Part shown: positions 14,767 through 64,000 of the stretch, piece after piece
How positions within the stretch are numbered: position 1 is the first letter of the stretch
Layout: the number at the start of each line of letters is the position of its first letter
Assembly (NCBI GenBank): GCA_045577755.1
Contig: JAZNJA010000252.1
Location: forward strand, 14,271 to 78,270
Length of the DNA stretch: 64,000 nucleotides
Origin: Eubacteriales bacterium
Lineage (GTDB): Bacteria; Bacillota; Clostridia; Oscillospirales; CAG-272
Direction of reading: 5' to 3'
Notes under the pieces: model-generated
What the model was told of the DNA's origin: nothing
What the model saw: only the letters and a program-made list of their open reading frames with translations
Database searches by the model: none
Made by a program: the position numbers and the translations under genes

Positions 14767-14787
14767 TCTCATAGTCCTCTTTTAGGC

Positions 14788-43368: not shown

Positions 43369-43369
43369 A

Positions 43370-49719: not shown

Positions 49720-49813
49720 GGTATTTCTTTCCTTTTCGTTCGTGATATCCGGATGCGCCGGAAATATTCTGTATGCGGTCGGGTAAAGGCTCGCCTGTGC
49801 GCGCCCTCACCGT

Positions 49814-51304: not shown

Positions 51305-51333
51305 ATTATAGCTTTTTTTCGTCATTTTGTCAA
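51305..51333 (-). promoter_or_regulatory. SigA-type promoter, eight-gene MoxR/VWA/lipoprotein operon
   Basis: Minus strand: TTGACA (51328-51333), 17 nt, TATAAT (51305-51310), inside an AT-rich gap. Confidence 0.8.
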
Positions 51334-51480: not shown

Positions 51481-51510
51481 GAAAAAGTGACCCGCGCGGG
51501 GTCACCTTTT
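51481..51510 (-). terminator. Intrinsic terminator ending the four-gene LRR/TIR-like operon
   Basis: Stem GTGACCC / GGGTCAC (51487-51493 / 51499-51505) flanked by AAAAA and TTTT. 15 nt after the TAA at 51521. Confidence 0.8.
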
Positions 51511-51520
51511 CGTATGGGCT

Positions 51521-53410
51521 TTATCGGTTATTGGGGATGCTGATCTCAATGGAGGGCACCACGGCGACGGTGGTACAGTCGGAGGGCATTTCGCCCGCCT
51601 TGCCTGTGACCGAGGGGAAGATGACCGCGGCGCGGTCGGCGTCGAGGTAATCCCCGGACTCCACCCAGTAGGCGTTGACGTTGCCGTCAAAGATGCTGCC
51701 GCCGATACAGCGGAAGTAGTCGGTGCCGCCGATGTTGAAGCTGCCGACGGTGCGGCGGGCCTCGGGGCTCTGCATTTCTCTGTCCACGTTCAGAAGGCCG
51801 AGCTTACGTCCGTCGAAGCTGAAGAGCCACTCCTGCTCCTCGGGGGTGAAGAGGAGGTCGGCAAACTCGCCGTTCATCCAATCCGCCAGAGTGGAATAGC
51901 GCCACTCGTTGTCGTACCGGTTCTCGTTGAAGGCCATGGCGTCCAGGCCTCTGGAGCAGACCAGAATAGCGGTCTCGACACCGCTGCGCATCCGGCGCAG
52001 GACGTACCAGGTCACGGGCTCAAAGCGGAAGACGTAGATATCACGGTTGAGGTAGTTGTTCTTTCTCTGGCTCTCGGCTCTGGGGTTCTCCTCGTTGACG
52101 GTGAAGACGTCACGGTAGCGGGAGAAGTAGACCGCTCGGTAGCGGACACCGTCCACCTCGTCGTCCACGTACCAGCTATAGGGCTGGCCGTTCCTTCTGT
52201 CCAGGTACAGAGGATTCCAGGCACTGGGAGCGGCGGGATTGGGACGGCCGTACTTGTCGAAGAAGAACTTCTTGACGGTCAGACTCATTTCCCGGGACTG
52301 GGGGTAGTTGCCGAAGACCACGTGGTTGTCATCGATGAATACGGGGGGATGGGAGGTGCCTACCGAATCCCTCCGCACAGGCACAGGGTCAGGAACAGGC
52401 ATCCCTGTAGGCACGGGGACAGGCACGGGGATGGGCTTTATGCCGCGTATATTGTTAGCCGCCAGAACGAAATTGATGATCTGATCCTCATCGTCACGCT
52501 GGAAAATATTCTCCTGCACTCGCTGGTTATTCAGATGGATCTGATACTGACCGCTGTAGCGCACGAAGCCGAGCTGAATGCGCTTACTGCGGTTGACCGG
52601 GTCGTTGCGGATGGCGTCAAAGCGGGAGTACATCTCTATGAGACGGTTGTCCACGTCGCGGTCCACCAGAGCCAGCATACACTGGGAATGGTTCAGAGCG
52701 TACAGGATCTTGGCCTCGTAGGTGATCATGTTCTCATCGGCCTCATCGGGATTGGGACAGAATACCCGATTGATCTTCTGGGCATTTGCCATGAGCTTAT
52801 GGATGGTCGTAGCCATGTGGTAGGCCTCGGCGCGGTCCTTGGAAAGGTCCTCAAAGGCAATGAAGAGCTGATACTCCTTCCCCTCCCGCTCCAGGCGGTT
52901 GTAGTAGTCGTTGATACCGTCGATGTATTCCGCAAAGGCCATGAGTCGCTTCATTTTCCGCTCGCGGTGGGCTCTGTCGGGAATGGATTCGACCAGCTCC
53001 ACGGCAATCAGAAAGTCGTTGGCATCCTGGAAGCGCTCCTTGTGAGGGGTATGGCAGATGATGACGGGAGGCTTTGCCTCGTCCATTCCGATCTGCTCGT
53101 TGTAGACGATCTGGACGTCGAACTGGGACAGGGCGCGGCCCAGGTGGGCATCCACGTAGGACAGGTCCTTGATGGTACCGCTTCTGTCCTCGTGCTTGAG
53201 GTCCAGGGCGTAGCCGAAATGCTTGGTGGCTTCGGTGTAGCGGCCCGAGGCCAGGGCATTGTAGCCGTTGGTCACGTGGGAAACGTGGATGGACTTGAAT
53301 TCAAACTCAATGCCGCAATACTTACATTTGACTGCGGTAGTATTATCGGGCTTGGTCGTGAATTGCTTCGTGTCGAAGCATCCGCCGCATTGGGGGCAGG
53401 TATACAGCAT
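51521..53410 (-). CDS. Cytoplasmic zinc-ribbon / TPR-like / TIR-like / Pro-rich linker / DUF6273-like protein
   Basis: CPQCGG...CKYCG zinc ribbon. GRYTEATKHFGYALDL TPR-like helix pair. Flavodoxin/TIR-like strand-helix pattern (YQLFIAFED...NRVFCP...YEAKILYALNHSQCMLALVD). PIPVPVPVPTGMPVPDPVPV linker. C-terminal WYVL..ILVCSRGLDAMAF..W..STLADWMNGEF..LFTPEE pattern as I recall for DUF6273. No signal peptide. Domain calls are from pattern memory only. Confidence 0.6.
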   Translation of the reverse strand: MLYTCPQCGGCFDTKQFTTKPDNTTAVKCKYCGIEFEFKSIHVSHVTNGYNALASGRYTEATKHFGYALDLKHEDRSGTIKDLSYVDAHLGRALSQFDVQIVYNEQIGMDEAKPPVIICHTPHKERFQDANDFLIAVELVESIPDRAHRERKMKRLMAFAEYIDGINDYYNRLEREGKEYQLFIAFEDLSKDRAEAYHMATTIHKLMANAQKINRVFCPNPDEADENMITYEAKILYALNHSQCMLALVDRDVDNRLIEMYSRFDAIRNDPVNRSKRIQLGFVRYSGQYQIHLNNQRVQENIFQRDDEDQIINFVLAANNIRGIKPIPVPVPVPTGMPVPDPVPVRRDSVGTSHPPVFIDDNHVVFGNYPQSREMSLTVKKFFFDKYGRPNPAAPSAWNPLYLDRRNGQPYSWYVDDEVDGVRYRAVYFSRYRDVFTVNEENPRAESQRKNNYLNRDIYVFRFEPVTWYVLRRMRSGVETAILVCSRGLDAMAFNENRYDNEWRYSTLADWMNGEFADLLFTPEEQEWLFSFDGRKLGLLNVDREMQSPEARRTVGSFNIGGTDYFRCIGGSIFDGNVNAYWVESGDYLDADRAAVIFPSVTGKAGEMPSDCTTVAVVPSIEISIPNNR

Positions 53411-53442
53411 ATTTGAGTCTCCTTGCGGTATTTTCGGTTTTT

Positions 53443-53475
53443 GGCGGGCGGTTCGGAATATCCGCTCCGCCCGCC
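53443..53475 (-). other. GC-rich intercistronic hairpin without U-tract
   Basis: GGCGGGCGG (53443-51) / CCGCCCGCC (53467-75) with inner CGGA/TCCG pairing. Lies between the LRR-gene stop (53497) and the RBS of the downstream gene. Confidence 0.7.
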
Positions 53476-53496
53476 GTGGGGGGGTCTTTTTTGTGA

Positions 53497-56400
53497 TTAC
53501 TGTCCGAACTGCCCCTCGTACAGAGCGGCGATGCTCTCGGGGATGTCGTACTTGGCGAACAGGCAGCCCTTGAAGGCGTTCTTGTTCACCATGGTCATGC
53601 TCTCCGAGAAGGTGATGTCACGCAGGGCGAGGCAAGCGCCGAAGGCGTTGTTCTCAACCGTGACGAGTCCCTCGGGGAAGGTGACGGCCTTCAGGGAGGT
53701 ACAGGTGCTGAACGCGTTCTTTTCGATGGTGTTGAGCAGACCCATGTCGTTGAAGTCGATCTCCTTGAGAGAGGTGCAACCGTTGAAGGCGTCGGCGGGG
53801 ATGACCGTGAGGCTTGCGGGGATGTGGATGTAGGTCAGGGCGGTGCAGGTCTCGAAGGCACCGACGCCCATGGTGGTCAGGGTATCGGGGAGGCTGACGC
53901 TGTTCAGGAACAGGAAGCCCTTGAACGCGCCCTTCTCAATGGTGGTGGTACCCTCGCCAAGAGTCAGGGAGTTGAGGATGAGGGCCGCGCCGTTGAAGCT
54001 GTCGTTTTCCACGGTCTTCATGGCGGTGACAGTCACGTCCTTAACGCGGGAGTTGCCGAAGACGTGGGTATAGCCCTTGGACACGTCGGAGGGGGAGGCA
54101 CCCACGAAGGGCAGAGTCGCGGTCTTCAGATCGGAGCAATCCGAGAACGCGTCCTTACCGACGGAGGCAAGCCCCTTCGGCAGGGTGATCTCTTCAAACT
54201 CACATCCGGAGAAGGCCTTCTCGCCGATGGTGAGGAGGGATTCGGGGAGGACCAGGTGGCTGCCGTACACCGAGGTATTGGCGAAGGCGGAAGCACCGAT
54301 GGAGTTCAGGGGGAGACTGACCAGGTTGACGTACTCCAGGTATTCGCTGTTGCTGCCCATGCCGTCGGGGATCTGCGTAACCGAGGCGGGCAGATCCAGA
54401 GTAGCCAGTCTTGCGCAGTCGGCGAAGGCGTAGGTACCGATCTTCTTGACGGCGGTAGCGGAGAGATCCAGGGCATAGAGGGAATCGCAGTTGCGGAAGG
54501 CCTCGTCACCCAGGGTCGTCACGGCTCCGGGAAGGGTAATGTCGACAAGGCTTACACAGTCACGGAAGGCACCGTTTCCGATGGTATGGAGAGTGTCGGG
54601 CAGGTAGACGTACTCCAGGGAGCTTTCAGCGAAGGCGTAGTCCGAGAGGGTATTGAGTTGAGACTCGAACATCACGGAAGTGAGGTTGGGGCAGTCCTTG
54701 AAGGCGTAGGCGCCGATGTTCTCGATGCTGCGGAGGGTTTCTACGTTGGCCAGGCTGGAACAGCCCTCGAAGCAGTTATTGCCGATGGTCTTGACACGGC
54801 TGAGGTCAATGGCGGCCAGCTGGTTGACGTTCTTGAAGGCGCCCTCACCCATAACGGTGACCGAATCCATGCCGTTGATCTCGGTCAGGCTCTTACAGTC
54901 AGCGAAGGCGTAAGCACCCAGGCTCGTGACGCTGGCGGGAAGGGTGATGGATCTCAGATTCATGCCCCGGAAGGCGGAATCGGCGACGGCGGTCATGGGA
55001 GACGCGATACGCAGGTCGCGGACCGACGCGCAATCCTTGAAGGACTCGGCGCTCAGGTCGGTCATGACGGTCACGGTGACGGTGATGGACTTTGCGGAAT
55101 CGTCACAGTAGAAGATATCGCTGAGGGATTCACGATTGGAGGACTTAAGGGTGGTTCCCGTGAAGGGGACCGTGATGGATTCGATTTTGGTGATATCGGC
55201 GAAGGCGTTCTTGCCCACCAGGGTGGCGGAGGCAGGGACGACGACCTCGGTGAAGCTGACACAGCCGCGGAATGCTTCCCTTCCAATGGTCTTCAGGCTG
55301 TTGCTGAAGGTGACGTTGGGCAGGAGCTTGCATTCCTTGAAAGCGCCGTTGCCGATCTCGGTGACCGCGATCAGGCCCTCGAAGTCGGTCAGGCGGACAC
55401 AGCCGCGGAAGGCGTTCTTGCCGATCTTGTCAACGGAGGAGGCATCCTTGACCGACTGGAGTTTCACACAGCCGTCGAAGGCGCCCTCTGAGATGGTCTT
55501 GATACCGCCGGGCAGATAGACGGACATGAGGCTCAGCTCCTTGCAGGCGTTCTTGCCCAGGGTATCGCAAGCGCTGAGGGTCAGGGTGGCGATTCCGTCG
55601 GCACCGCGCAGGGAGCCGCGGTTGACGGTCTTCATGGCGGTGATCTCCACCGTCAGCTTCTTGGTGGCGTCGCCACAGCTGACCATACCTGTCAGAGAGC
55701 GGTTGTTACTGTTCTCCGGGGTAGTGCCCGTGAAGGGGACCGAAATGGTCTCCAGGTTGGGCAGATCGCGGAAGGCTCCCTGGCCGATGGTGGTAACGGA
55801 CACGGGAACCGTAACGTTCTTGAAGAGGGTACATCCGCGGAAGGCGTTGGCACCGATGGTCTTCAAAGACGGGGAGAAGCTGACGTCGTCGAGCTTTACA
55901 CAAGAGCGGAAGGCACTGCTGCCGATCTCGGTGACCTGATCCAGTCCCACGACCATGGTCAGATTCTTACAATCCATGAAGGCGCCGTTACCGATGCTCT
56001 TGAGGGAGTCGAAGCTCACGGTGGTGAGGGACGAGCACTCGCGGAAGGCGTTGTCGCCCAGCAGCTCGACGTCCTCCGCACCGATGATCTCCTGCAGCTT
56101 GGTACAGCCGTAGAAGGCATTCGCGCCGATCTCGAGAACGTGCTTCGGAATGGAAACCGTCTTGACAAAGGAGAGGTCACGGAAGGCATTATCATGGATC
56201 TCGGTAACGCCGTCACCCAGATGGATGGCGGAGCACCAGTTGAAGTCATCGAAGGAATGCTCACCGATGAGGGTGTTACCCGTTACGGTCAGGGTGATGC
56301 CGTTCTTCTTACTGTCGTACTTCATCACGTCCTTCAGGGATCCCTGCGCTGCCTCCTCGGGCGTGTGGCCCAGATAGGGGATGTTCAGGGTAACGACGTT

Positions 56401-58737
56401 CTGGCAATAATCGAAGGCGTGCTTGCCGATATAGGTCACGCTGTTGGGCACGGTGATGCTGCGGAAGGCGTTACAGCGGTTGAAGGCACCGTCACCGATG
56501 GTCTTCAGAGACTGAGAGAGCTCGATGTCCTGCAGCTGCAGACAGCCGTTGAAGGCGTTGTTGCCGATCTCGGTGACCTTCTCCAAGCCAACCAGGGAGG
56601 TCAGCTTTTCGCAGCCACGGTAAGCGCCGTCGGGGATGGACGTGATCGCGGTGGCAGTCAGATCCACCGATAGGATGCCGGACTCGCGGAAGACGTCGTT
56701 GCCGAGGGTCTCCAGGGTGTCGGGCAGGACCAGCTCCTTGAGGCGGGTACAGCCTCGGAAGGCGTGGCGGTTCATCGTAGTCAGACCCGTATTGAGGGAG
56801 ACCTTCTGGAGGAAATCGCAATTGAGGAAGGCACCTCTGTCCACGGTCTTGACCGACTCAGGGAGGGTCACGCCCGTGATGTTATCACCGAAGAAGGCGA
56901 AGAGGTCGATCTCGGTGACGGTCTTGCCGTCGATGGAATCGGGGATCTTACAGTCGGTCAGCTTATCGTTGAAGCGTCCCGCGATGGCGATGCCGCCGTC
57001 GTCCAGGTCACGGTAGAAGTAGTTCTTATCGTAGCCGTCGTAGCGCTCGTAGAACAGGGTACAGGACAAGAGGACGAAGATGGCAGCCAGGGCGTATACC
57101 TTACAGGCGTTCCGAACGGGACGGATGAAGTAGTAGTAGCCCTTGCGGCGGGTCTTGCGGCGATGGACCGCGCGGATGGCGGCGATGATGATGGTAGGAA
57201 TGGTGACCGCCCACAGGCCCAGAAGCCCCATAATGATCCAGGTCATGAGCTGGTTCTTGATGAGGGTGTACTGGTAGATATAAGCGACCACGGCGGTGGC
57301 GGTCAGGTTGAGGAAGCCCGAAATGAAGGGCATATACCGCAGGCGGCGGTCTCTTCTTCTGGCCAGGTCCTCCTTGAAGGCGGCGTTGAGCTGCTCCACG
57401 ATGTGGCCCATCTCATGGTCAATGAGGAGGTTCTTGATCTCATAGGGCGTATACTTGCGGATATCGTTGAGGTAGCGGATGCCGCTCGCCCGCAGGACCT
57501 CGGCGTCGGCGTCCGAGAAGATACCGCCCTGCTTCCGCTCCAGGGGTACCTTATAGAGGTACTTGCGGATCTTCCCCCAGACGGACTCCAGGTGTTGGTT
57601 CTGTCTGGCCTCCGCCAGCATGGCCAGCTGCATGAGCTTAATGGCGTTGCTGGAGCGATGGAGGAAGGCGGTCTGGAAATCCATCTCGCTGAGCAGCCAG
57701 ATCTCCTCCAGGCAGACGGGACCCGTACGGTCCTCGGTGCGTCTGGACTCCACGAAACGGCAGACCCGCTCCAGATCCGCGTTCCATTGGACCTCAGTAT
57801 ACTCATGGTTCAGGGGATAGTCGGCGTTCTTGAGTCCGTAGCCCCGTCTTCTTCCCTTCTTCTTACAGGCGGCGCGCTCTTTGAGGAGGGCATTCGCCTC
57901 CTCGCCGTGGGCGATACGCCAGATATACTTCAAGGGGATGCGGGACAGGAAACCGTACTCCTCCACGCAATAGCGATCCATGACCAGGAAGCGATCCGTC
58001 TTCTTGGACTTGCCCAGATTGCACTCCATGCGGTTGAGCAGCACCGCTGAGTTATTGAGCACGGGAGGCGTGCGGCGACCCATGTAGAGACCAGCCTCCG
58101 AGATGGAGGGGATCGGCTCGACGGGCATCGCGTAGACGTCGACGGTATCGCGGAAGCTGATGTCATCGTTGGGACCCACATAGATCTGGGGACCCGCGGC
58201 GGCTTTCGCCTCGGCATCTGCCAGCACCTGGCTCAGGACGTTGACCAGCTTGGTACCGACCGTGGATAGGGCCTCGGCCTCGGCGGCCTTTCTTCCCTTC
58301 CGCTTTTTCTTTTTCGCGACGGTACTCGCCACAGAGGCGGGCGGGGTCAGCAGGATCTCGGCGGGGACGGGCTCGGCGGGCTCCTCTTCGGCAGTCTCCG
58401 CGGCCGCGTCGGGTGCGGCGGCTTCGGCGGCGGGGGTCTCGGCAGGAGCCGACGGGGCATCATTGGCGGTGGGAGCGGCGGCTTCGACGGAGGGAGCCTC
58501 CGCGGCCTGAGCGCCGTTTTCGGGGGTCTCGGCGGGAGCCATCTCCTCGAGCTCCTTCAGCAGCTGATTCATCTGCTCAAGCAGCTCGTCCAGGGCCTTA
58601 TCGGTCTCAGCCTCCTCCCCCAGAGGGAGGTCCGCCGCCTGATTCTCCGCCTCGGCGGCCTCAGGAGCGATGGGCTGCTTGACCTCCGCGGCGGGACGCT
58701 TTTGGGCGGGGGCGCGGTTCTTTTTCTTCTTACTCAT
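53497..58737 (-). CDS. 1746-aa transmembrane protein: about 470-aa cytoplasmic N-domain, three TM helices, about 1150-aa extracellular BspA-type LRR array
   Basis: Lys-rich N-terminus, A/E/P low-complexity region, HhH-like LRASGIRYLNDIRKYTPYEIKNL. TM1/TM2 then HRRKTRRK, then TM3 (positive-inside rule puts the LRRs outside). Dozens of LRR_5 units (...IGxxAFxxCxxLxxVxLP...). Confidence 0.75.
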   Translation of the reverse strand: MSKKKKNRAPAQKRPAAEVKQPIAPEAAEAENQAADLPLGEEAETDKALDELLEQMNQLLKELEEMAPAETPENGAQAAEAPSVEAAAPTANDAPSAPAETPAAEAAAPDAAAETAEEEPAEPVPAEILLTPPASVASTVAKKKKRKGRKAAEAEALSTVGTKLVNVLSQVLADAEAKAAAGPQIYVGPNDDISFRDTVDVYAMPVEPIPSISEAGLYMGRRTPPVLNNSAVLLNRMECNLGKSKKTDRFLVMDRYCVEEYGFLSRIPLKYIWRIAHGEEANALLKERAACKKKGRRRGYGLKNADYPLNHEYTEVQWNADLERVCRFVESRRTEDRTGPVCLEEIWLLSEMDFQTAFLHRSSNAIKLMQLAMLAEARQNQHLESVWGKIRKYLYKVPLERKQGGIFSDADAEVLRASGIRYLNDIRKYTPYEIKNLLIDHEMGHIVEQLNAAFKEDLARRRDRRLRYMPFISGFLNLTATAVVAYIYQYTLIKNQLMTWIIMGLLGLWAVTIPTIIIAAIRAVHRRKTRRKGYYYFIRPVRNACKVYALAAIFVLLSCTLFYERYDGYDKNYFYRDLDDGGIAIAGRFNDKLTDCKIPDSIDGKTVTEIDLFAFFGDNITGVTLPESVKTVDRGAFLNCDFLQKVSLNTGLTTMNRHAFRGCTRLKELVLPDTLETLGNDVFRESGILSVDLTATAITSIPDGAYRGCEKLTSLVGLEKVTEIGNNAFNGCLQLQDIELSQSLKTIGDGAFNRCNAFRSITVPNSVTYIGKHAFDYCQNVVTLNIPYLGHTPEEAAQGSLKDVMKYDSKKNGITLTVTGNTLIGEHSFDDFNWCSAIHLGDGVTEIHDNAFRDLSFVKTVSIPKHVLEIGANAFYGCTKLQEIIGAEDVELLGDNAFRECSSLTTVSFDSLKSIGNGAFMDCKNLTMVVGLDQVTEIGSSAFRSCVKLDDVSFSPSLKTIGANAFRGCTLFKNVTVPVSVTTIGQGAFRDLPNLETISVPFTGTTPENSNNRSLTGMVSCGDATKKLTVEITAMKTVNRGSLRGADGIATLTLSACDTLGKNACKELSLMSVYLPGGIKTISEGAFDGCVKLQSVKDASSVDKIGKNAFRGCVRLTDFEGLIAVTEIGNGAFKECKLLPNVTFSNSLKTIGREAFRGCVSFTEVVVPASATLVGKNAFADITKIESITVPFTGTTLKSSNRESLSDIFYCDDSAKSITVTVTVMTDLSAESFKDCASVRDLRIASPMTAVADSAFRGMNLRSITLPASVTSLGAYAFADCKSLTEINGMDSVTVMGEGAFKNVNQLAAIDLSRVKTIGNNCFEGCSSLANVETLRSIENIGAYAFKDCPNLTSVMFESQLNTLSDYAFAESSLEYVYLPDTLHTIGNGAFRDCVSLVDITLPGAVTTLGDEAFRNCDSLYALDLSATAVKKIGTYAFADCARLATLDLPASVTQIPDGMGSNSEYLEYVNLVSLPLNSIGASAFANTSVYGSHLVLPESLLTIGEKAFSGCEFEEITLPKGLASVGKDAFSDCSDLKTATLPFVGASPSDVSKGYTHVFGNSRVKDVTVTAMKTVENDSFNGAALILNSLTLGEGTTTIEKGAFKGFLFLNSVSLPDTLTTMGVGAFETCTALTYIHIPASLTVIPADAFNGCTSLKEIDFNDMGLLNTIEKNAFSTCTSLKAVTFPEGLVTVENNAFGACLALRDITFSESMTMVNKNAFKGCLFAKYDIPESIAALYEGQFGQ

Positions 58738-58760
58738 GATCTGTCAGATCTCCTTTTTTG

Positions 58761-59519
58761 TCAGTCGAATCTGTTTACGCTGTAATCCTTGATGGCGTTT
58801 ACATAAATGATCTTATATGTTTTACGGGACATATCGTCACCGTCGATCTCCAGAATCGGTTCGGTCACGTAGTACTCCACCACTCCGTCCTCGGAGGTCT
58901 TGATGGGCTTGACGTAGAGTGTCGAGAGGTCCACGTATTTGGACGTGACCGTGCGGACCTCGTACTTGGCGCGGGTGCCGTCTCCCGTCTCCAGGTGGAA
59001 TTCATCCCGGGAGAAGAGACGCCCCAGCAGGCAGGCGTTATAGGCGTTGACAGCGGCGAACTCGTAGCTGTCTCTTTCGTATTCCACGCTCGGCCGATAG
59101 AAGAATCGGCAATCGAGGCGCTTTCCGATCTTGACCGTCATGGGATCAAGACCGAACTTGATGAAGTCGGATTCAATCTCGGCGAAGCCCGCCTCGAAAC
59201 GGTTTTTCCGCTCGTCTCGGGGGAAAACGTCGTAGGATTCGCCGACGGAGGGGCGGCAGACGTATATGTCCTTGGCCTCATTGTTATAGTCGGGGTAGGA
59301 GACGGAGCGGACGCGCTCAGCGCTTGCGATGGCGCTCAGGATATCCTCTCTTGTATACAGCTCCTTTTTGGGAAGCTTCATGGTCAGCAAGCGAACATTC
59401 TCCAGGGTTCTTCCCGCGGAGTATGCCACCACCAGGCAGGGGGGCTTTTTCCGCTCGGCCGGTGACGCTACACAGATGCCGATGCTGTCGACTGTCAGGC
59501 TCTTCAAGGATTCGCTCAT
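58761..59519 (-). CDS. Hypothetical cytoplasmic protein (252 aa)
   Basis: ATG with GAGGT RBS. No signal peptide, no TM, no recognisable motif. Coding-like composition, wedged between two giant genes on the same strand. Confidence 0.6.
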   Translation of the reverse strand: MSESLKSLTVDSIGICVASPAERKKPPCLVVAYSAGRTLENVRLLTMKLPKKELYTREDILSAIASAERVRSVSYPDYNNEAKDIYVCRPSVGESYDVFPRDERKNRFEAGFAEIESDFIKFGLDPMTVKIGKRLDCRFFYRPSVEYERDSYEFAAVNAYNACLLGRLFSRDEFHLETGDGTRAKYEVRTVTSKYVDLSTLYVKPIKTSEDGVVEYYVTEPILEIDGDDMSRKTYKIIYVNAIKDYSVNRFD

Positions 59520-59547
59520 GTCTGTTACCTCATGCTTCCTTTGGTTT

Positions 59548-59574
59548 CCCTCCGCCCCGTGGGGGGGCGGAGGG
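59548..59574 (-). other. GC-rich intercistronic hairpin without U-tract
   Basis: 11-bp stem CCCTCCGCCCC / GGGGCGGAGGG with a 5-nt loop, between the repeat-protein stop (59601) and the 252-aa gene start (59519). A second small stem GATCCG/CGGATC lies at 59585-59602. Confidence 0.7.
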
Positions 59575-59600
59575 TTTGTTGTCCGATCCGCGGTTACGGA

Positions 59601-62600
59601 TCAAGAGGGATCGGCCGGCTCGCTACCGGACTCAGGCTCGGTCTCGGGCTCGGTGATGCGGAGGGTCACGGTCATCTTTCTCGTGCCGTCCGTAAACTTA
59701 CAGTTGGCGTTGATCAGCTGAAGGGTGTACTCGTACTCGCCGGGCTCCACGTAGGAGGCCTCGGTCACGACGAAATCTCTACCCAGCTCCAGATCCGCGA
59801 TGGTAGCGGTCAGGGAGTGAGCGGCTCCGTCGTATACGACCTCGGTGTCGCCGCTCCAGATGCCTTCCACGTAGCGGGTGGTGATGGAGAAGGTTACGGT
59901 CTTCTGGCCAACTGCGTTGTCCATGGTGTAGTTGCTGTTGGACAGGGACTTGACGGTCACGCTATACTTGCCCACGTCGGTGAATGCGCGCATATTGGAG
60001 GCGTAGGTGAAGTCCACGGTCTTGCCATCCACGGCACCCTTAACGGTTGCGATGATCTCGTGATTCTGTCCGTCGTAGACGATATCATCATAGTTGTTCC
60101 AGGAGATGACCACCGCCTGGGGCTTGATGATGAGTGCGGGGGAGGTACGGGCCGAGCCCTCCTCCAGGGTGTAGTTCGTGCTCTGCAGCTCCTTGATGCT
60201 GACGGTGTAGGTACCGGCATTGGTGAAGCCACGGGTGTTGCTGTTGTAGGTGAAGGGCACGGACTTGCCGTCCTGAGCACCCACAACGGTAGCGCTCAGC
60301 TCATGAGACGTTCCGTCATAGGTCAGAGTGCCGCCGCCGGTCCAGGTAACGGTTACGGGCTGAGGAACAATGACCAGGTTGGGAGACGTCAGGTTCGTCG
60401 CGCCTGCGAGGGTGTAGTTGCTGTCGGACAGGGACTTGACGCTGATGCTGTAGGTGCCGACGTTGACATGAGAACGGGAACCTGCGGCGTAGGTGAAGTT
60501 CAGAGTCTTACCGTCCAGAGCGCCCTTGACCGTTGCGGTCAGGCTATGGTATGCTCCGTCGTAGATCTGGGTCTTACCGCCCGTCCAGGAGATGGTTACG
60601 CTCTGAGGCTCGATCTTCAGCACGGGGGAGGTCAGGTTGGAGGCGCCTGTCAGGGTATAGTTGCTGTTGGTCAGGGCCTTCACGCTGACGGTGTTGCTGC
60701 CCACGTTGGTGAAGCTGTTGGCGCCGTTGTAGGTGAAGGTGACGCTCTTACCGTCGGTCTTACCCAGGACGGTAGCGGTCAGGTAGTGGGCCGAGCCGTT
60801 GTAGGTAACGGTGCCGTTCCCTGCCCAGGTGATGGTGACGGGCTGCTTGGTGATGGTCAGGCCTGCGCCGAGGTTACCGCTTCCACCCTCCAGGGTGTAG
60901 TTGGGATCGTTCAGCTTAATCTCGGTGCGATAGTCGCCCGCGTTGGTGAAGCTGTTGGTGGCGGTGTAGGTAAAGTCGACGTTGCGGCTGTCGTTCTTAC
61001 CCTTGACGGTAGCGACCAGGGTATGGGCGCGGGAATCGAACTCATAGCTGCCGGTTCCGTTCCAGGTAATGACGACGGGCTGAGGCTTGATGGTGATGGT
61101 CATGCTGGTCTTGGCGCCTGCCTCCAGCACGTAGTTGCTGTCGTTCAGGGCGACCGTGACGGTGTGGGTACCGGCCGAGATGAAGGAACGGTCGGTGCTG
61201 AAGCTCAAGGAAACGGTCTTACCGTCCTTGGTTCCCTTAGCGGTGGGGGTCATGGTGTGGCTGCTTCCGTCATAGACCACGTTGTTCGTGCCGCTCCAGG
61301 TGATGGAGGCGGTCTGACGGTTGATGGTCATGGTGGAAGAGGTCTTGCCCGTGGCACCGGTCAGGGTGTAGTTGTTGTTGTTGAGGCGGAAGGAGACGGT
61401 GTAGGTGCCCGCGTTGGTATAGGAGGTACCGGTCTCGTAGGTGATGTTGACCGACTTGCCGTCGTTCTTACCCACGACCGTGGCGGTCAGGCTATGAGCC
61501 GAGCCGTCGTACTCCAGGGTGGTACTGCCGCTCCAGGTGATCTTGACTGCCTGCTGGTTGATGGTCAGGGTCTTGCCGGTATCACCGGTAGCGCCGGAGA
61601 GGGTGTAGTTGCCGTCAGCCAAGGTACGGACGGATACGTTGAGGGTACCCGCGTTGGTCAGGGAGTTGCCGCTCTGGTAGCTGCCGACCAGGACAGGCTT
61701 ACCGTCGTCGATACCCACGATGGTGGGCACCACAGTACGGGTCTGGCCGTCGTAGGTGTAGGTCAGGGTTGCGGGCCAGGTGATTCTGACCTTCTGAGGC
61801 GAGATGACCAGGTCGCAGCTGGTCTTGGAGGCACCGGTCAGGGTGTAGTTGCTGTCGCTGAGCTTGCTGACCTTGACGGTGTAGCTACCGGCGTTCAGCT
61901 GTGTGTTGGCGGTGGAGCCGTATTCGAAGCCGACGGCCTTGCCGCCCACACCGGTAACGGTGGCGATGACGGAATGGGGATTGCCGTCATAGGTGACCGA
62001 GGTGTTGCCGCTCCAGGACACGTTTACGGGTCTGGGATCGATTCTCAGGGTCTGGGACTTGGAGCCGGTGGCACCGGTCAGGGTGTAGTTGCTGTTCTCC
62101 AGGGCGGTGACCGTGATGGTCTGGGAGCCCGCGTCGGTACGGCTGTAGCTGCCGTCGCGCTGGAAGACCACGGTCTTGCCGTCGTTGGTACCCTTGACGG
62201 TGGGGGTCAGGGTATGGACCTGGCCGTCGTAGGTGACGGTGGTGTTACCGCTCCAGGTGATGGTGACGGGCTGAGGATTGATGGTCAGGGTCTTGGAAAG
62301 GTTACTCGAGGGCAGCTTATAGTTGCTGTCCTCCAGGGAGGCGATCTCCACCTTGATGCTGCCCACGTTGGTCAGAGAGGTCTCGTTGGACTTGAGCTTA
62401 TGAGGCACCTTGTCCGAGCTGTTGACGCCCGTGACCGTGGGGATCAAGGAGTGAGCGCTTCCGTCGTAGGTGAAGGAGTTGGTACCCCAGCTGATGCTGA
62501 CGGTGCACTGGCTGATAACCACAGTCTCCTCGGCGTTGCTGGAGGAGGCATCCAGCTTATAGTTGGGGTTGGACAGCGCGGTGACGGCGAAGCTGTAGGA

Positions 62601-64000
62601 GCCTGCGTTGAGGATCTCACGGGATCCGGGATTGTAGGTGAACTCCACGGTATCGCCGGTGCAGAGGTTGGTGGCGTAGGCCTCGACGGTACGCTTGACC
62701 TTATCGTAGGTGAAGTTACCCACATTGGTATTGGTACCGCTGTAGCGCCAGTTGAGCTTGATGGTCAGGGGAGTAATGTTGTAGGTACAGGAAGCGTTAC
62801 CGCTGATGACGTAGTTGGAGTTATCCAGCTTGGTCGCGGTGATCTTGTACTCGCCCACGTTACGGCTGTTGACCGTGGTGTAGCCCGTGACGTTCACGTC
62901 GTTGGAGCCGCTGTAGGAGGCGGCGGGGGTCTGGACGTTGCCGTTGTACACGAAGGTATTGAAGTTCCAGGTCAGGCTGATGGGCTTGGGCGCGATGCTC
63001 CACTGGTAGGAGTTCCCCTGGCCAATGGAGTAGTTGCTGTTGGACAGGGCGGTGACCGTAGCGGTATAGGAGCCTGCGTTGGTCTTGGTGTTGTTGGTGT
63101 AGGTCATGGTGACCGCGTCACCGCTGTAGACCTTACCGTCGGTATCCGAGGCCGCGCCGGTCGCGAACTGGGCGTTCTGGATCTGGGCGGAGCCGTTGTA
63201 CACGAAGGAATTGGAGGCCCAGGTGAAGTTGATAGACTTCTTACCGATGCTCCAGGTCTTGGAGACGTTGGTGGTAGGCAGCTGGTAGTTTTCCGCGTGG
63301 GTACCGCTCAGGTCGGTGACGCGGGCGGTATAGCCGGTGGCGGAATAGTTACGTGCCACGTTGCCGGTGTAGACCAGCTTGACGTCAGCGGGAGCACCCA
63401 GGTGCTCCACCAGACCGCTCTGGATACCGGTGGTCAGGGTGAAGTCCTTGCTGTTGTACACGAGGGAGGTAGAGGAGCCATAGGTGCCGCTCTTACCGTT
63501 GCCCGCGTAGTTCCAGACGCCGCTGAGGGTCAGGGGACGCTTGGTGATGGCGAAGTCGAAGGAATCGGCCGCAATCACGTAATTGGGATCCACCACGTAG
63601 GAGCTTGTCTCGCTGTCGTAGCGGACGATGGAGGTGATGATGATCTCATAGTCACCAACGTTGACGGCGCGGTTGGCTCCGGCGAAGGAGTAGACGGCCG
63701 TGGATTCGGTGGACTTGATCTCAAAGCGGGTATCAGCGCTGTTGACCGTAGAGGCGATGAAGCGCCCGTCGGTCTCCAGCAGGCCGTTCACGGTAAACTG
63801 AGGACCCTGGTAGAGGCCGTTATAGACCGAGGACTTGGGAGCGGAGGCACTCCAGACCACGTTGACGGTCTTGGGCTGAATGCTCCAGGTCAGGGTCTTG
63901 CCGGTACCCAGGACGTAGTTCGTGTTGCTGACACCCGTGACCGTGACCTCGTAGGTACCCACGTTGGTGCGGTCGTTCTCTGTCTTGCCGTAGGTCAGGT
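59601..64000 (-). CDS. Giant repeat protein with at least 17 YDG/MBG-type adhesin-like repeats (5' end beyond window)
   Basis: The frame stays open to the window edge; the track M at 63962 is an internal GTG, and upstream codons read LTYGKTENDRTN. Repeats of 80-87 aa: (I/V)(T/S)W..... Y(D/N)G..H......G..DGK.V.F.Y.....NAG.Y.V....L.(D/N)SNY.L. C-terminus TEPETEPESGSEPADPS. No LPXTG visible. Confidence 0.8.
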   Translation of the reverse strand, partial: LTYGKTENDRTNVGTYEVTVTGVSNTNYVLGTGKTLTWSIQPKTVNVVWSASAPKSSVYNGLYQGPQFTVNGLLETDGRFIASTVNSADTRFEIKSTESTAVYSFAGANRAVNVGDYEIIITSIVRYDSETSSYVVDPNYVIAADSFDFAITKRPLTLSGVWNYAGNGKSGTYGSSTSLVYNSKDFTLTTGIQSGLVEHLGAPADVKLVYTGNVARNYSATGYTARVTDLSGTHAENYQLPTTNVSKTWSIGKKSINFTWASNSFVYNGSAQIQNAQFATGAASDTDGKVYSGDAVTMTYTNNTKTNAGSYTATVTALSNSNYSIGQGNSYQWSIAPKPISLTWNFNTFVYNGNVQTPAASYSGSNDVNVTGYTTVNSRNVGEYKITATKLDNSNYVISGNASCTYNITPLTIKLNWRYSGTNTNVGNFTYDKVKRTVEAYATNLCTGDTVEFTYNPGSREILNAGSYSFAVTALSNPNYKLDASSSNAEETVVISQCTVSISWGTNSFTYDGSAHSLIPTVTGVNSSDKVPHKLKSNETSLTNVGSIKVEIASLEDSNYKLPSSNLSKTLTINPQPVTITWSGNTTVTYDGQVHTLTPTVKGTNDGKTVVFQRDGSYSRTDAGSQTITVTALENSNYTLTGATGSKSQTLRIDPRPVNVSWSGNTSVTYDGNPHSVIATVTGVGGKAVGFEYGSTANTQLNAGSYTVKVSKLSDSNYTLTGASKTSCDLVISPQKVRITWPATLTYTYDGQTRTVVPTIVGIDDGKPVLVGSYQSGNSLTNAGTLNVSVRTLADGNYTLSGATGDTGKTLTINQQAVKITWSGSTTLEYDGSAHSLTATVVGKNDGKSVNITYETGTSYTNAGTYTVSFRLNNNNYTLTGATGKTSSTMTINRQTASITWSGTNNVVYDGSSHTMTPTAKGTKDGKTVSLSFSTDRSFISAGTHTVTVALNDSNYVLEAGAKTSMTITIKPQPVVITWNGTGSYEFDSRAHTLVATVKGKNDSRNVDFTYTATNSFTNAGDYRTEIKLNDPNYTLEGGSGNLGAGLTITKQPVTITWAGNGTVTYNGSAHYLTATVLGKTDGKSVTFTYNGANSFTNVGSNTVSVKALTNSNYTLTGASNLTSPVLKIEPQSVTISWTGGKTQIYDGAYHSLTATVKGALDGKTLNFTYAAGSRSHVNVGTYSISVKSLSDSNYTLAGATNLTSPNLVIVPQPVTVTWTGGGTLTYDGTSHELSATVVGAQDGKSVPFTYNSNTRGFTNAGTYTVSIKELQSTNYTLEEGSARTSPALIIKPQAVVISWNNYDDIVYDGQNHEIIATVKGAVDGKTVDFTYASNMRAFTDVGKYSVTVKSLSNSNYTMDNAVGQKTVTFSITTRYVEGIWSGDTEVVYDGAAHSLTATIADLELGRDFVVTEASYVEPGEYEYTLQLINANCKFTDGTRKMTVTLRITEPETEPESGSEPADPS
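59640..64000 (-). repeat. Coding tandem repeats of about 250 bp (at least 17 copies) of the YDG/MBG-type protein
   Basis: Periodic recurrence of ...ACCTGGAGCGG... / TACGACGG-type codons on the coding strand. At protein level, 17 W...Y(D/N)G...SNY units. High inter-repeat identity in the central units. Confidence 0.85.

What the first reader, a model, noticed from the sequence alone, without database searches (positions are those of the whole stretch)
51481..59519. Split 'LRR receptor + TIR-like' gene neighbourhood in one operon
Three consecutive minus-strand genes end at a clean terminator and have no intervening promoters.
- A 252-aa unknown protein.
- A 1746-aa protein. Its topology (basic loop HRRKTRRK between TM2 and TM3) places about 1150 aa of BspA-type LRRs outside and a 470-aa domain inside.
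- A cytoplasmic protein with a zinc ribbon and a TIR-like strand-helix pattern.

An extracellular LRR array coupled to an intracellular TIR-like module resembles Toll-like-receptor logic distributed over two polypeptides. This is a hypothesis from pattern reading, not from a search. I am not aware of a described bacterial system with this arrangement.
Basis: inference. Interest (0 to 1): 0.62.

Follow-up and report, generated by a model that had tools for sequence, protein, structure and literature searches.

The report
LRR membrane protein with dead-TIR partner
Uncultured gut Clostridia carry a conserved, undescribed gene cassette that pairs a membrane protein displaying leucine-rich repeats outside the cell with a cytoplasmic TIR-domain relative lacking the residues TIR enzymes need to cleave NAD, so it resembles a Toll-like receptor plus adaptor split over separate proteins, though its function is untested.

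Summary
Three minus-strand genes (252 aa, 1746 aa, 629 aa) end at a clean terminator. The 1746-aa protein has about 468 aa inside, three conserved TM segments and about 1180 aa of BspA-type LRRs outside.

The 629-aa protein is a true TIR homologue. Its first 320 aa align (hhalign probability 100%, E 1e-56) with a zinc-ribbon/TPR/TIR family in which 46/47 members hit Pfam TIR_2. A pLDDT 86.5 model best matches the MyD88 TIR and deoxyribosyltransferases among compact folds. The catalytic Trp-x3-Glu is gone: Glu is replaced by I/M/V/L/T in all 44 subfamily members and the Trp is deleted. I predict a scaffold, not an NADase. Its C-terminus is a C-type-lectin-like DUF6273 domain.

Synteny is strong. 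About 14 lineages, down to roughly 27-32% identity and with different flanks, keep the order giant MBG-repeat membrane protein, p252, LRR protein, TIR-like protein. Two more conserved genes lie upstream, outside the window.

Catalytically intact relatives are often fused to LRR_5. Two of them have TIR inside, TM segments and LRR outside in one chain.

No defence-database hit and no paper describing this were found. Function and protein contacts remain inferred.

The parts
59601..64000 (-). 3' part (at least 1466 codons) of a giant MBG-repeat surface protein gene that runs off the window. Full-length orthologues are 2174-2774 aa, and the three whose N-terminus was read (L017, L019, L020) share a 5-TM N-terminal anchor. 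This is the first conserved cassette gene visible in the window.
   Evidence: MBG_3 E 8e-40 and MBG_2. The frame is open to the window end. Orthologues lie upstream of p252 in L001, L006, L010, L012, L013, L017, L019, L020 and L021. The 5-TM anchor is shown.
59548..59574 (-). GC-rich 11-bp hairpin between the giant gene and p252, with no T-run on the coding strand. It is not a canonical terminator.
   Evidence: RNA-derived contig 59453-59765 spans it.
58761..59519 (-). p252: a 252-aa cytoplasmic orphan protein and the most conserved cassette member. Invariant residues are Y33, C88, R89, G93, R101, A155, N158, A162, C163 and Y217; the motif is NAYNACLLG.
   Evidence: (100 clusters listed, nearly all ~245-300 aa plus a few fragments, none carrying a functional name). 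No Pfam, NCBIfam, PADLOC, PHROG or PDB hit.
58198..58737 (-). LRR protein aa 1-180: a lineage-specific low-complexity Ala/Glu/Pro/Lys-rich N-terminal extension.
   Evidence: Absent from distant orthologues. It swamped the word-index search.
57334..58125 (-). LRR protein aa ~205-468: a conserved cytoplasmic orphan domain, mostly helical by sequence pattern, ending in the invariant EDLARRRDRR.
   Evidence: Alignment A5 of 8 orthologues; 30-64% identity by tblastn. No Pfam or PDB hit. Unrelated to the TIR profile.
57049..57333 (-). LRR protein aa 469-563: three transmembrane segments with the basic loop HRRKTRRK between TM2 and TM3. Topology is N-in, C-out.
   Evidence: Hydropathy and charge flanks are conserved in 7 proteins.
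53497..57048 (-). LRR protein aa 564-1746: extracellular BspA-type LRR_5 array, plus the stop codon.
   Evidence: LRR_5 E 2e-263 with 13 stretches. NCBIfam HupY/LrrG-like repeats score below the cutoff.
53291..53410 (-). 629-aa protein aa 1-40: four-Cys zinc ribbon (C5, C8, C29, C32).
   Evidence: The Cys residues are at least 90% conserved in 95 sequences. Weak zinc-ribbon family hits. Strands in the model.
52883..53290 (-). 629-aa protein aa 41-176: helical TPR-like region plus a long helix. It is part of the conserved ZnR-TPR-TIR module.
   Evidence: hhalign covers aa 1-320. TPR_11 hits in 27/47 relatives. Helices in the model.
52445..52882 (-). 629-aa protein aa 177-322: TIR-fold domain lacking the catalytic Trp/Glu (a pseudo-TIR). 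M260 occupies the Glu position. The subfamily motif is D250-x-x-[IM]-D-x-R256-L.
52349..52444 (-). 629-aa protein aa 323-354: disordered Pro-rich linker.
   Evidence: pLDDT below 50 for aa 326-353. Pairwise identity 11%.
51521..52348 (-). 629-aa protein aa 355-629: DUF6273 (C-type-lectin-like) domain, plus the stop codon.
   Evidence: Pfam DUF6273 at 18.3 bits, below the 23.5 cutoff, but 25/46 subfamily members hit it. Foldseek matches phage DUF6273 proteins at E 4.8e-5, TMt 0.71. The C-lectin fold is reported in PMC10743442.
51481..51506 (-). Intrinsic terminator closing the cassette.
51305..51333 (-). Perfect sigma-70 promoter of the next, separate unit (473-aa membrane protein, MoxR, DUF58, BatA/VWA). 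It marks the cassette's 3' limit and is not part of the cassette.
   Evidence: 12/12 consensus match. Operon content. This operon is absent downstream in distant loci.

Best explanation
What is shown. The three genes are the 3' half of a conserved cassette of uncultured ruminant- and gut-associated Clostridia. The order is: [~870-aa protein] - [~590-aa multi-CxxC protein] - [giant 5-TM-anchored MBG-repeat surface protein] - p252 - [cytoplasmic orphan domain / 3 TM / extracellular BspA-LRR array] - [zinc ribbon / TPR-like / TIR fold / Pro linker / C-type-lectin-like DUF6273]. The first two genes lie beyond the window. The 629-aa protein descends from a family of zinc-ribbon-TIR proteins that keep the NADase Trp-x3-Glu motif and are often fused to LRR_5. 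Its own subfamily has lost both residues and gained DUF6273.

What is inferred. The cassette builds a cell-surface binding or receptor complex. Two membrane proteins present large repeat ectodomains (MBG fibre and LRR solenoid) to the gut environment. On the cytoplasmic side, the LRR protein's N-domain, p252 and the pseudo-TIR protein form a sub-complex. In that sub-complex the TIR fold works as a protein-protein scaffold, as in animal TLR/MyD88 TIRs. It does not work as an NAD-cleaving enzyme. The DUF6273 domain contributes a second binding surface.

What remains open. Information could flow outside-in (signalling) or inside-out (assembly or anchoring).
For: - Genes, topology and terminator.
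- TIR homology: a direct phmmer search with aa 1-345 gave 93 hits. 46/47 of the distant group hit Pfam TIR_2. hhalign between the subfamily and that group gives probability 100%, E 1.1e-56.
- Fold: AF2 model pLDDT 86.5 with a beta-alpha-beta pattern at aa 180-318. Foldseek finds MyD88 TIR 4dom (TMt 0.57, prob 0.99) and deoxyribosyltransferase 7o62 (TMt 0.65).
- Loss of the catalytic dyad: the family motif T-x-W-V-K-N-E-Y aligns with WTEYE of BtTir 7UXR. That Trp/Glu pair corresponds to AbTir W204/E208, where E208A is inactive (10.1101/2022.05.07.491051). The Glu column is I/M/V/L/T in 44/44 subfamily members and Glu in 48/48 of the others. Loss coincides with the DUF6273 motif (39/44 versus 0/48).
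- Selection: all globular domains show 31-34% pairwise identity and the linker 11%. This indicates purifying selection, not decay.
- Synteny: the order giant - p252 - LRR - TIR-like occurs in the window, L001-L014 and L017-L021, in about 14 lineages with no counter-example. Distant loci have gaps of 3-18 bp, and the flanks differ.
- Upstream genes.
- Rosetta-stone link: 21/47 catalytic relatives carry LRR_5, and P0077 and P0061 place TM segments between TIR and LRR.
- Expression: near-identical metatranscriptome contigs lie on the TIR-like and LRR genes and across the giant/p252 junction.
Against:
- The window protein itself does not pass any Pfam TIR model, and Foldseek E-values against the PDB are all above 1e-3. 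TIR identity therefore rests on profile homology plus fold.
- The cassette holds no recognisable output module such as a kinase, DNA-binding domain, cyclase or nuclease, so a signalling role has no visible endpoint.
- DUF6273/C-lectin domains are best known on extracellular or phage receptor-binding proteins, which sits oddly with a cytoplasmic location.
- A new conserved acidic/basic motif (D250, D254, R256; 'FIAYED' in betaA) replaces the old site and could mean a new activity rather than a pure scaffold.
- The RNA evidence is thin: low-depth contigs, possible DNA carry-over and some 90-95% matches.
Confidence: 0.5

Rival explanations
1. Assembly or anchoring machine. The cytoplasmic proteins (p252, the pseudo-TIR-DUF6273 protein and the upstream CxxC and ~870-aa proteins) are dedicated chaperones or assembly factors. 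They help insert, export or hold the two very large ectodomain proteins, which have polytopic anchors instead of signal peptides or sortase motifs. No signal is transduced.
For: Every conserved partner is co-linear with two giant membrane proteins. There is no output domain anywhere in the cassette. The window's giant protein ends without an LPXTG motif or C-terminal TM segment. Binding-type domains (TPR-like, TIR scaffold, C-lectin) would suit a chaperone or adaptor role.
Against: No ATPase, translocase or peptidase was detected in the cassette genes that could be scanned. The ancestry of the TIR module lies with sensor-fused NADase-type TIRs. Nothing specific ties these folds to export.
Confidence: 0.22
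2. One reading: an immune or defence system in which the extracellular LRR senses a phage or foreign ligand and the TIR partner answers enzymatically by NAD depletion or cADPR-type signalling, as in Thoeris or plant TNLs.
For: TIR ancestry and LRR association. One catalytic relative, P0077, lies near a phage terminase gene. In L007 a PnuC NMN transporter lies immediately downstream.
Against: The catalytic Glu and Trp are absent in 44/44 subfamily members. No PADLOC model hits the subfamily or its catalytic relatives beyond a weak zinc-ribbon match. The cassette contains no SLOG, SIR2, STING or other effector. All domains evolve at similar, moderate rates, with no hypervariable sensor. The constant partner is a giant adhesin-like protein.
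Confidence: 0.08
3. Repurposed pocket. The TIR-fold domain is neither a scaffold nor an NADase. It is a new enzyme or small-molecule (nucleotide) sensor that uses the subfamily-specific residues. It would be comparable to the related deoxyribosyltransferase/DNPH1 or SLOG-type folds.
For: The highest-TM compact Foldseek match is a 2'-deoxyribosyltransferase (7o62, TMt 0.65), and DNPH1 also matches. New residues are conserved where the old site was: D250 in 37/46, D254 in 25/46, R256 in 39/46, and betaA 'YED'.
Against: Sequence homology is to TIR_2-type proteins, not NDT. TIR and NDT share the same general fold, so the Foldseek ranking is not discriminating, and all E-values exceed 1e-3. No ligand evidence exists.
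Confidence: 0.15
4. No functional unit. The genes are neighbours by descent only, and the TIR/LRR adjacency is coincidental in a lineage rich in BspA-type LRR genes.
For: All loci come from one clade of Clostridia MAGs. LRR_5 genes are abundant there, and another lies at window 32714-33865.
Against: Gene order is kept at about 27-32% protein identity while both flanks are replaced. Distant loci have gaps of 3-18 bp. The LRR partner is a specific orthologue with its own conserved N-domain and TM block, not just any LRR_5 gene. LRR_5 fusion to the ancestral TIR module is independent supporting evidence.
Confidence: 0.05

Closest known systems
Animal Toll-like receptor plus TIR adaptor (TLR / MyD88)
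   Same: An LRR ectodomain lies outside, TM segments span the membrane, and a TIR-fold protein without NADase residues sits inside. MyD88 TIR is among the best compact structural matches. A non-catalytic scaffold role is the predicted mode.
   Different: Receptor and TIR are on separate polypeptides. The receptor's own cytoplasmic domain is not TIR-related. The orientation is inverted: the N-terminus is inside, there are 3 TM segments and the LRRs are C-terminal. The LRRs are of the BspA/LRR_5 type. There is no death domain or kinase downstream. No evidence of common descent of the whole architecture was obtained. No interaction is shown.
Bacterial zinc-ribbon/TPR/TIR_2 proteins with variable C-termini (group A4 here; the general class 'TIR fused to a repeat or sensor domain', PMC9153377)
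   Same: The N-terminal 320 aa are homologous over the zinc ribbon, the TPR-like helices and the TIR (hhalign probability 100%). Both are associated with LRR_5.
   Different: Those proteins keep the W-x3-E motif (48/48). They carry LRR_5, TPR or TM bundles in cis and never DUF6273. The two whose contexts were looked up (P0077, P0058) sit in unrelated gene neighbourhoods. The window subfamily lost W and E, gained DUF6273, and has its LRR partner in trans.
Catalytic bacterial TIRs (AbTir, BtTir, Thoeris ThsB)
   Same: They share the TIR fold and descent within the bacterial TIR_2 radiation. BtTir 7UXR is the only PDB sequence hit of the family's TIR profile.
   Different: Those are NADases or cyclases that depend on the alphaC Glu and Trp, and in Thoeris they pair with a ThsA effector. 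Here both residues are absent, there is no effector gene, and there is no PADLOC match.
BspA-type LRR surface proteins and adhesins (for example HupY/LrrG, TpLRR)
   Same: The LRR_5 repeat array is predicted to be surface-exposed.
   Different: The anchor is an internal 3-TM block preceded by a conserved ~270-aa cytoplasmic domain, not a signal peptide, lipobox or cell-wall anchor. The NCBIfam HupY model scores far below its cutoff (273 versus 1250 bits).
DUF6273 / C-type-lectin-fold DGR target proteins of gut phages (tentaclins, Faecalibacterium prophage targets)
   Same: The C-terminal domain has the same fold (Foldseek E 4.8e-5, TMt 0.71).
   Different: The window holds no template/variable repeat and no candidate reverse-transcriptase gene beside the locus. 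The domain is not hypervariable. It is fused to a cytoplasmic zinc-ribbon-TIR module rather than to a tail or Ig-like module.

Membership tests
TIR domain superfamily (Pfam TIR_2 / TIR) | Significant match to a curated TIR model | tested here: not met
   No TIR or TIR_2 hit for the window protein at E<=0.01. Only 2/46 sequences of alignment A3 hit TIR_2; one of them (P0046) is a catalytic-type sequence, the other was not identified.
TIR domain superfamily (Pfam TIR_2 / TIR) | Homology to bona fide TIR domains by a profile method | tested here: met
   hhalign between the subfamily and a group with 46/47 TIR_2 hits gives probability 100%, E 1.1e-56, and spans the TIR region. Direct phmmer hits range from E 1e-4 to 1e-7.
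TIR domain superfamily (Pfam TIR_2 / TIR) | Flavodoxin-like parallel beta-sheet with alternating helices | tested here: met
   AF2 model with block pLDDT mostly 83-97 over aa 180-320 shows a beta-alpha-beta-alpha pattern. Foldseek finds MyD88 TIR at TMt 0.57-0.58, prob 0.92-0.99, but with E above 1e-3.
Catalytic (NADase/cyclase) TIRs | Conserved alphaC glutamate (AbTir E208 equivalent) | tested here: not met
   M260 sits at that column. The column is I/M/V/L/T in 44/44 subfamily members and Glu in 48/48 relatives. The role of E208 is described in the paper read.
Catalytic (NADase/cyclase) TIRs | Aromatic residue four positions before the Glu (AbTir W204 equivalent) | tested here: not met
   The residue falls in a short (2-3 residue) deletion in the subfamily.
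Catalytic (NADase/cyclase) TIRs | NAD+ cleavage activity | not testable with these tools
   This needs a biochemical assay.
Toll-like receptor architecture | LRR ectodomain, TM segment and cytoplasmic TIR in one polypeptide | tested here: not met
   The parts are split over two genes, and the LRR protein's cytoplasmic domain is unrelated to TIR. The feature is met by the relatives P0077 and P0061, in inverted order.
Toll-like receptor architecture | Receptor-adaptor contact through cytoplasmic domains | not testable with these tools
Known TIR-based anti-phage systems (Thoeris and other PADLOC entries) | Match to defence-system models and presence of an effector partner | tested here: not met
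   PADLOC gives only a weak zinc-ribbon hit (PDC-M14A, E 7e-4, aa 2-60) and nothing for 8 family members. No SLOG, SIR2 or similar gene occurs in the cassette.
BspA-type LRR (Pfam LRR_5) | Repeated LRR_5 units | tested here: met
   E 2e-263 with 13 stretches.
DUF6273 (C-type-lectin-like) | Pfam model match and fold | tested here: inconclusive
   The window protein scores 18.3 bits against a 23.5-bit cutoff, while 25/46 subfamily members hit the model. Foldseek matches phage DUF6273 proteins at E 4.8e-5, TMt 0.71. The fold is supported; the curated threshold is not reached.
Diversity-generating retroelement target | Template/variable repeat pair and a nearby reverse transcriptase | tested here: not met
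   The 3' 880 nt of the gene have no repeat elsewhere in the window; a Y[AVLIM]DD motif scan flagged four distant long ORFs, none followed up, so no reverse transcriptase was identified.
MoxR-DUF58-BatA/VWA operon | Co-transcription and conserved linkage with the trio | tested here: not met
   A terminator and a perfect promoter lie in between. Linkage is seen only in relatives at 55% identity or more.

The most novel reading that the evidence does not exclude
This would be a bacterial split Toll-like receptor. Ligand binding by the extracellular LRR array (possibly together with the giant MBG fibre) would be relayed across the membrane to a non-catalytic TIR-fold adaptor that signals by assembly rather than by NAD chemistry. 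That would mean scaffold-type TIR signalling, so far regarded as an animal speciality, also arose in bacteria from NADase-type TIR-LRR ancestors. The single-chain TIR/TM/LRR relatives (P0077, P0061) would be the catalytic counterpart.
Probability: 0.15. Interest if true: 0.85.

Novelty: new variant of a known kind. Interest (0 to 1): 0.6.

Why it matters
TIR domains in bacteria are currently understood almost entirely as NAD-consuming enzymes of anti-phage systems. Non-enzymatic scaffold TIRs coupled to extracellular LRR receptors are treated as a hallmark of animal innate immunity.

Here a bacterial TIR lineage has lost its catalytic dyad yet stays under purifying selection. It is locked in an operon with an LRR-out membrane protein, and it has catalytically intact relatives that are fused to LRRs, some across a membrane. 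That combination offers a tractable test of how TIR domains switch between enzyme and adaptor roles. It also allows a test of whether bacteria use LRR ectodomains for sensing.

The work also defines a widespread but unannotated cassette in ruminant-gut Clostridia: at least 100 p252 clusters, with four orphan protein families. The cassette probably shapes the cell surface of abundant uncultured gut bacteria.

Tried and rejected
1. AF2 on the 629-aa protein with only 4 sequences gave pLDDT 44 and was discarded. The rerun with 46 sequences worked.
2. The word-index homologue search found only 3 relatives of the 629-aa protein and 1 for the LRR N-terminus, where the low-complexity region swamped the candidates. 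The exhaustive representative search was needed.
3. The window protein scored nothing useful against PDB sequences. The full A4 profile was swamped by LRR and TPR hits, so a TIR-only sub-alignment was used.
The genome scan found a single MAG and the metagenome scan found 4 short contigs.
5. For p252 and the LRR N-domain, the Pfam, NCBIfam, PADLOC, PHROG and PDB-profile searches that were run gave nothing, even with a 57-sequence p252 profile.
6. I tested whether the LRR N-domain or p252 is a hidden TIR, which would allow TIR-TIR pairing. hhalign probability was 0.2%, so this is rejected.
7. I tested for a DGR link of DUF6273. No repeat of the gene's 3' end was found and no reverse transcriptase was identified, so this is rejected.
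8. The 252-aa gene between two TIR-LRR paralogues in L025 is not a p252 homologue; it is a small LRR_5 protein.
10. I considered the MoxR/VWA operon as part of the system and rejected it.

Full report
OBSERVATION

The 1746-aa protein matches Pfam LRR_5 in 13 stretches (E 2e-263). p252 and the first ~575 aa of the LRR protein match nothing. The 629-aa protein gives only a sub-threshold DUF6273 hit and weak zinc-ribbon hits.

Fifteen nucleotides after the stop of the 629-aa gene the coding strand reads GGTGACCC-GCGC-GGGTCAC-TTTTTC, a textbook intrinsic terminator. A perfect TTGACA-17-TATAAT promoter at 51333-51305 then starts a separate unit: a 473-aa membrane protein, MoxR, DUF58 and BatA/VWA.

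The two internal gaps (23 and 86 bp) have Shine-Dalgarno sequences and no terminator. Upstream, the giant MBG-repeat gene is separated from p252 by 81 bp. That gap holds a GC hairpin without a T-run.

TOPOLOGY

Three hydrophobic segments (about aa 469-491, 497-523 and 544-563) are conserved in six orthologues from 76% down to about 30% identity. So are the basic run EDLARRRDRR before TM1, the short YQYTLIKN loop, the basic HRRKTRRK-type loop between TM2 and TM3, and a YERYDGY motif after TM3.

Only aa ~205-468 of the cytoplasmic part is conserved. The Ala/Glu/Pro-rich first 180 aa are specific to the window's lineage.

IS THE 629-AA PROTEIN TIR-LIKE?

The word-index search found only three relatives. 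An exhaustive phmmer search of 1.84 billion representatives with aa 1-345 found 93. They fall into two groups.

- About 45 are ~600-aa proteins like the query, with DUF6273 detected in 25/46.
- About 47 more distant proteins hit Pfam TIR_2 in 46 cases, TPR_11 in 27 and LRR_5 in 21.

Profile-profile comparison of the two groups gives probability 100% and E 1.1e-56 over the zinc ribbon, the TPR-like helices and the whole TIR region.

With the 46-sequence alignment AlphaFold2 gave a good model (pLDDT 86.5). It contains a zinc ribbon, a helical region, a beta-alpha-beta-alpha domain at aa 180-318, a disordered Pro linker and a beta-rich C-terminal domain.

Foldseek against the PDB gave no E below 1e-3 for the whole two-domain model. 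The compact, high-probability matches are the MyD88 TIR (4dom and 8yym, TMt 0.57-0.58) and nucleoside 2'-deoxyribosyltransferases/DNPH1 (TMt 0.52-0.65). These belong to the TIR/NDT flavodoxin-like fold class.

THE CATALYTIC SITE IS GONE

The TIR_2-positive relatives share T-x-W-V-K-N-E-Y-T-R-F. A TIR-only profile of them hits one PDB sequence, BtTir 7UXR, and aligns W-V-K-N-E with W-T-E-Y-E.

This Trp-x3-Glu pair corresponds to AbTir W204/E208. E208 is the key catalytic residue: E208A is inactive. The Trp is required for ADPR cyclisation (10.1101/2022.05.07.491051). The general importance of this Glu for TIR NADase activity is also stated in PMC7075850.

In the window protein the Glu column holds M260. 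Across the 44 members of its subfamily the column is I19/M14/V5/L4/T2 and never Glu. All 48 other sequences have Glu. The Trp falls in a short deletion.

The loss coincides with acquisition of the DUF6273 domain: the FGxY[PE]Q motif occurs in 39/44 versus 0/48. The domain is not decaying. Zinc ribbon, helical, TIR-fold and DUF6273 regions all show 31-34% mean pairwise identity against 11% for the linker. New subfamily-specific residues are conserved at the old site: D250, D254, R256 and 'FIAYED' in betaA.

THE C-TERMINAL DOMAIN

Foldseek against viral models matches phage DUF6273 proteins (E 4.8e-5, TMt 0.71). Published models describe DUF6273 as C-type-lectin-like and as a frequent target of diversity-generating retroelements in gut phages (PMC10743442 and PMC11792537). 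The window holds no template/variable repeat, and no reverse transcriptase was identified. The domain is not hypervariable.

SYNTENY

Contigs encoding relatives of the 629-aa protein at 55%, 34% and 31-33% full-length identity all carry an orthologous LRR gene immediately upstream. The gap is 4-18 bp in the distant loci L008, L010, L012 and L013, and larger (86 or 160 bp) in L001 and L007. Where the contig extends, a p252 orthologue and a giant MBG-repeat gene lie further upstream. tblastn confirms orthology of every part, including the LRR N-domain and the TM block.

Anchoring on p252 instead gave the same order in three more lineages, and the metagenome contigs agree with it. The p252 family itself spans 100 clusters at 90% identity, nearly all ~245-300 aa and none carrying a functional name.

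The flanks differ between loci:
- the MoxR operon only in close relatives;
- a PnuC NMN transporter in L007;
- an aminotransferase in L013;
- cysteinyl-tRNA synthetase in L019;
- an acetyltransferase in L020;
- an RNase T-like gene in L021.

I saw no counter-example in about 14 lineages.

The unit is larger than three genes. Full-length giant proteins have a conserved 5-TM N-terminal anchor. They are preceded by a ~590-aa multi-CxxC protein (about 50% identity among L017, L019 and L020) and a ~870-aa protein (about 24% identity). Both lie beyond the window's right end.

ROSETTA-STONE EVIDENCE

In the catalytically intact relatives, LRR_5 arrays are fused C-terminally to the zinc-ribbon-TIR module in 21/47 cases. 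Most of these have no TM segment.

P0077 is the exception with a single span: zinc ribbon, TPR, TIR, coiled coil, KRGLKKHKK, one TM segment, then LRR_5. P0061 has five TM segments between TIR and LRR_5. These are single-chain proteins with the TIR inside and the LRR outside.

Their gene contexts are unrelated to the cassette. P0077 lies near a terminase gene. P0058 sits with a second TIR-LRR paralogue inside the ffh-rpsP-trmD-rplS cluster. PADLOC recognises none of them.

EXPRESSION AND HABITAT

The locus is found in sheep, gut and faecal metagenomes. The one named genome hit is a Clostridia MAG from water-deer rectum.

Two gut metatranscriptomes contain low-depth contigs at 99% identity or better on the TIR-like and LRR genes, and a near-identical one (3 mismatches, 1 gap over 312 nt) spanning 59453-59765. 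That contig crosses the giant-gene/p252 junction. This is weak support for expression and read-through, because the depth is low and DNA carry-over is possible.

INTERPRETATION

Shown:
- the gene structures, the topology signals and the terminator;
- the TIR homology and fold, and the loss of the catalytic dyad;
- the DUF6273 fold;
- cassette conservation and the LRR_5 fusion in relatives.

Inferred: the products form one complex. The TIR fold acts as a protein-protein scaffold at the cytoplasmic face of an LRR-out membrane protein. The cassette serves surface binding or sensing.

The main rival is a non-signalling assembly or anchoring role for the cytoplasmic proteins, since no output domain is present. 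An enzymatic defence role is unlikely, given the lost Glu/Trp, the absence of an effector and the absence of any defence-database match. A repurposed ligand-binding or catalytic pocket cannot be excluded.

COMPARISON AND NOVELTY

The general class 'TIR fused to a repeat or sensor domain' is known across kingdoms (PMC9153377). Six full-text searches found no description of this cassette, of the DUF6273-bearing pseudo-TIR subfamily, or of bacterial TIR/TM/BspA-LRR proteins. Absence from that library is not proof of absence elsewhere.

The locus works like a split TLR-plus-adaptor in layout only. It is a member of the TIR superfamily by homology and fold, but it fails the defining features of catalytic TIRs and of single-chain TLRs. 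I rate it a new variant of a known kind, with moderately high interest.

Noticed in passing
beyond window end (>64000); L017:51-1415, L019:927-2726, L020:731-2476; L019:1-918, L020:3-716: Two further conserved genes precede the giant gene. One is a ~590-aa cytoplasmic protein with several CxxC pairs (about 50% identity among three loci). The other is a ~870-aa protein (about 24% identity). Neither has a Pfam family. The cassette is probably six genes.
   Followed up: partly
L017:1440-7964, L019:2765-9928, L020:2522-9862; window 59601-64000: The giant MBG-repeat proteins have a conserved five-TM N-terminal anchor followed by an LRR_5-like cap and Listeria-Bacteroides repeats. The window's copy ends without an LPXTG motif or C-terminal anchor.
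   Followed up: partly
P0077 (L022:1289-3298) and P0061: These are single-chain bacterial proteins with a zinc ribbon, a TIR that keeps Trp-x3-Glu, one or five TM segments and extracellular LRR_5. That is a TLR-like topology in inverted order. P0077 lies about 2.6 kb from a Terminase_6N gene.
   Followed up: partly
L025:3881-9585: Two TIR-LRR_5 paralogues (1089 and 523 aa) flank a 252-aa small LRR_5 protein. The three genes are inserted into the conserved ffh-rpsP-rimM-trmD ... rplS housekeeping cluster. The 252-aa protein is not related to p252.
   Followed up: yes
window 51305-51333 (-) and 41770-51235: A 12/12 sigma-70 consensus promoter drives a separate operon of a 473-aa membrane protein, MoxR (AAA_3), DUF58, BatA/VWA, VWA and a 532-aa protein. 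The operon is conserved next to the cassette only in relatives at 55% identity or more.
   Followed up: partly
window 59548-59574: An 11-bp GC-rich hairpin with no T-run on the coding strand lies between the giant gene and p252. A metatranscriptome contig (59453-59765) reads through it. It could be an RNA-stability or attenuation element.
   Followed up: no
L007:6869-7627: In one lineage a PnuC-type NMN transporter lies directly downstream of the TIR-like gene. This may be coincidental, but it relates to NAD metabolism.
   Followed up: no
window 52631-52663 (aa 250-260 of the 629-aa protein): The subfamily-specific conserved motif D-x-x-[IM]-D-x-R-L, together with betaA 'FIAYED', replaces the ancestral catalytic region. 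This suggests a new function for the pocket.
   Followed up: partly
window 32714-33865 (-): A second, small (383-aa ORF) BspA-type LRR_5 protein gene lies elsewhere in the window, with 25-39% identity to repeats of the 1746-aa protein.
   Followed up: no
window 10519-14772 (-) and 38940-41741 (-): Two large ORFs (1417 aa and 933 aa) have no Pfam match at E<=1e-4.
   Followed up: no
window 53847-56709 and 56121-61560: Metatranscriptome contigs show 'skips' between LRR repeats and between the LRR and MBG genes. These are most likely assembly artefacts across repeats.
   Followed up: no
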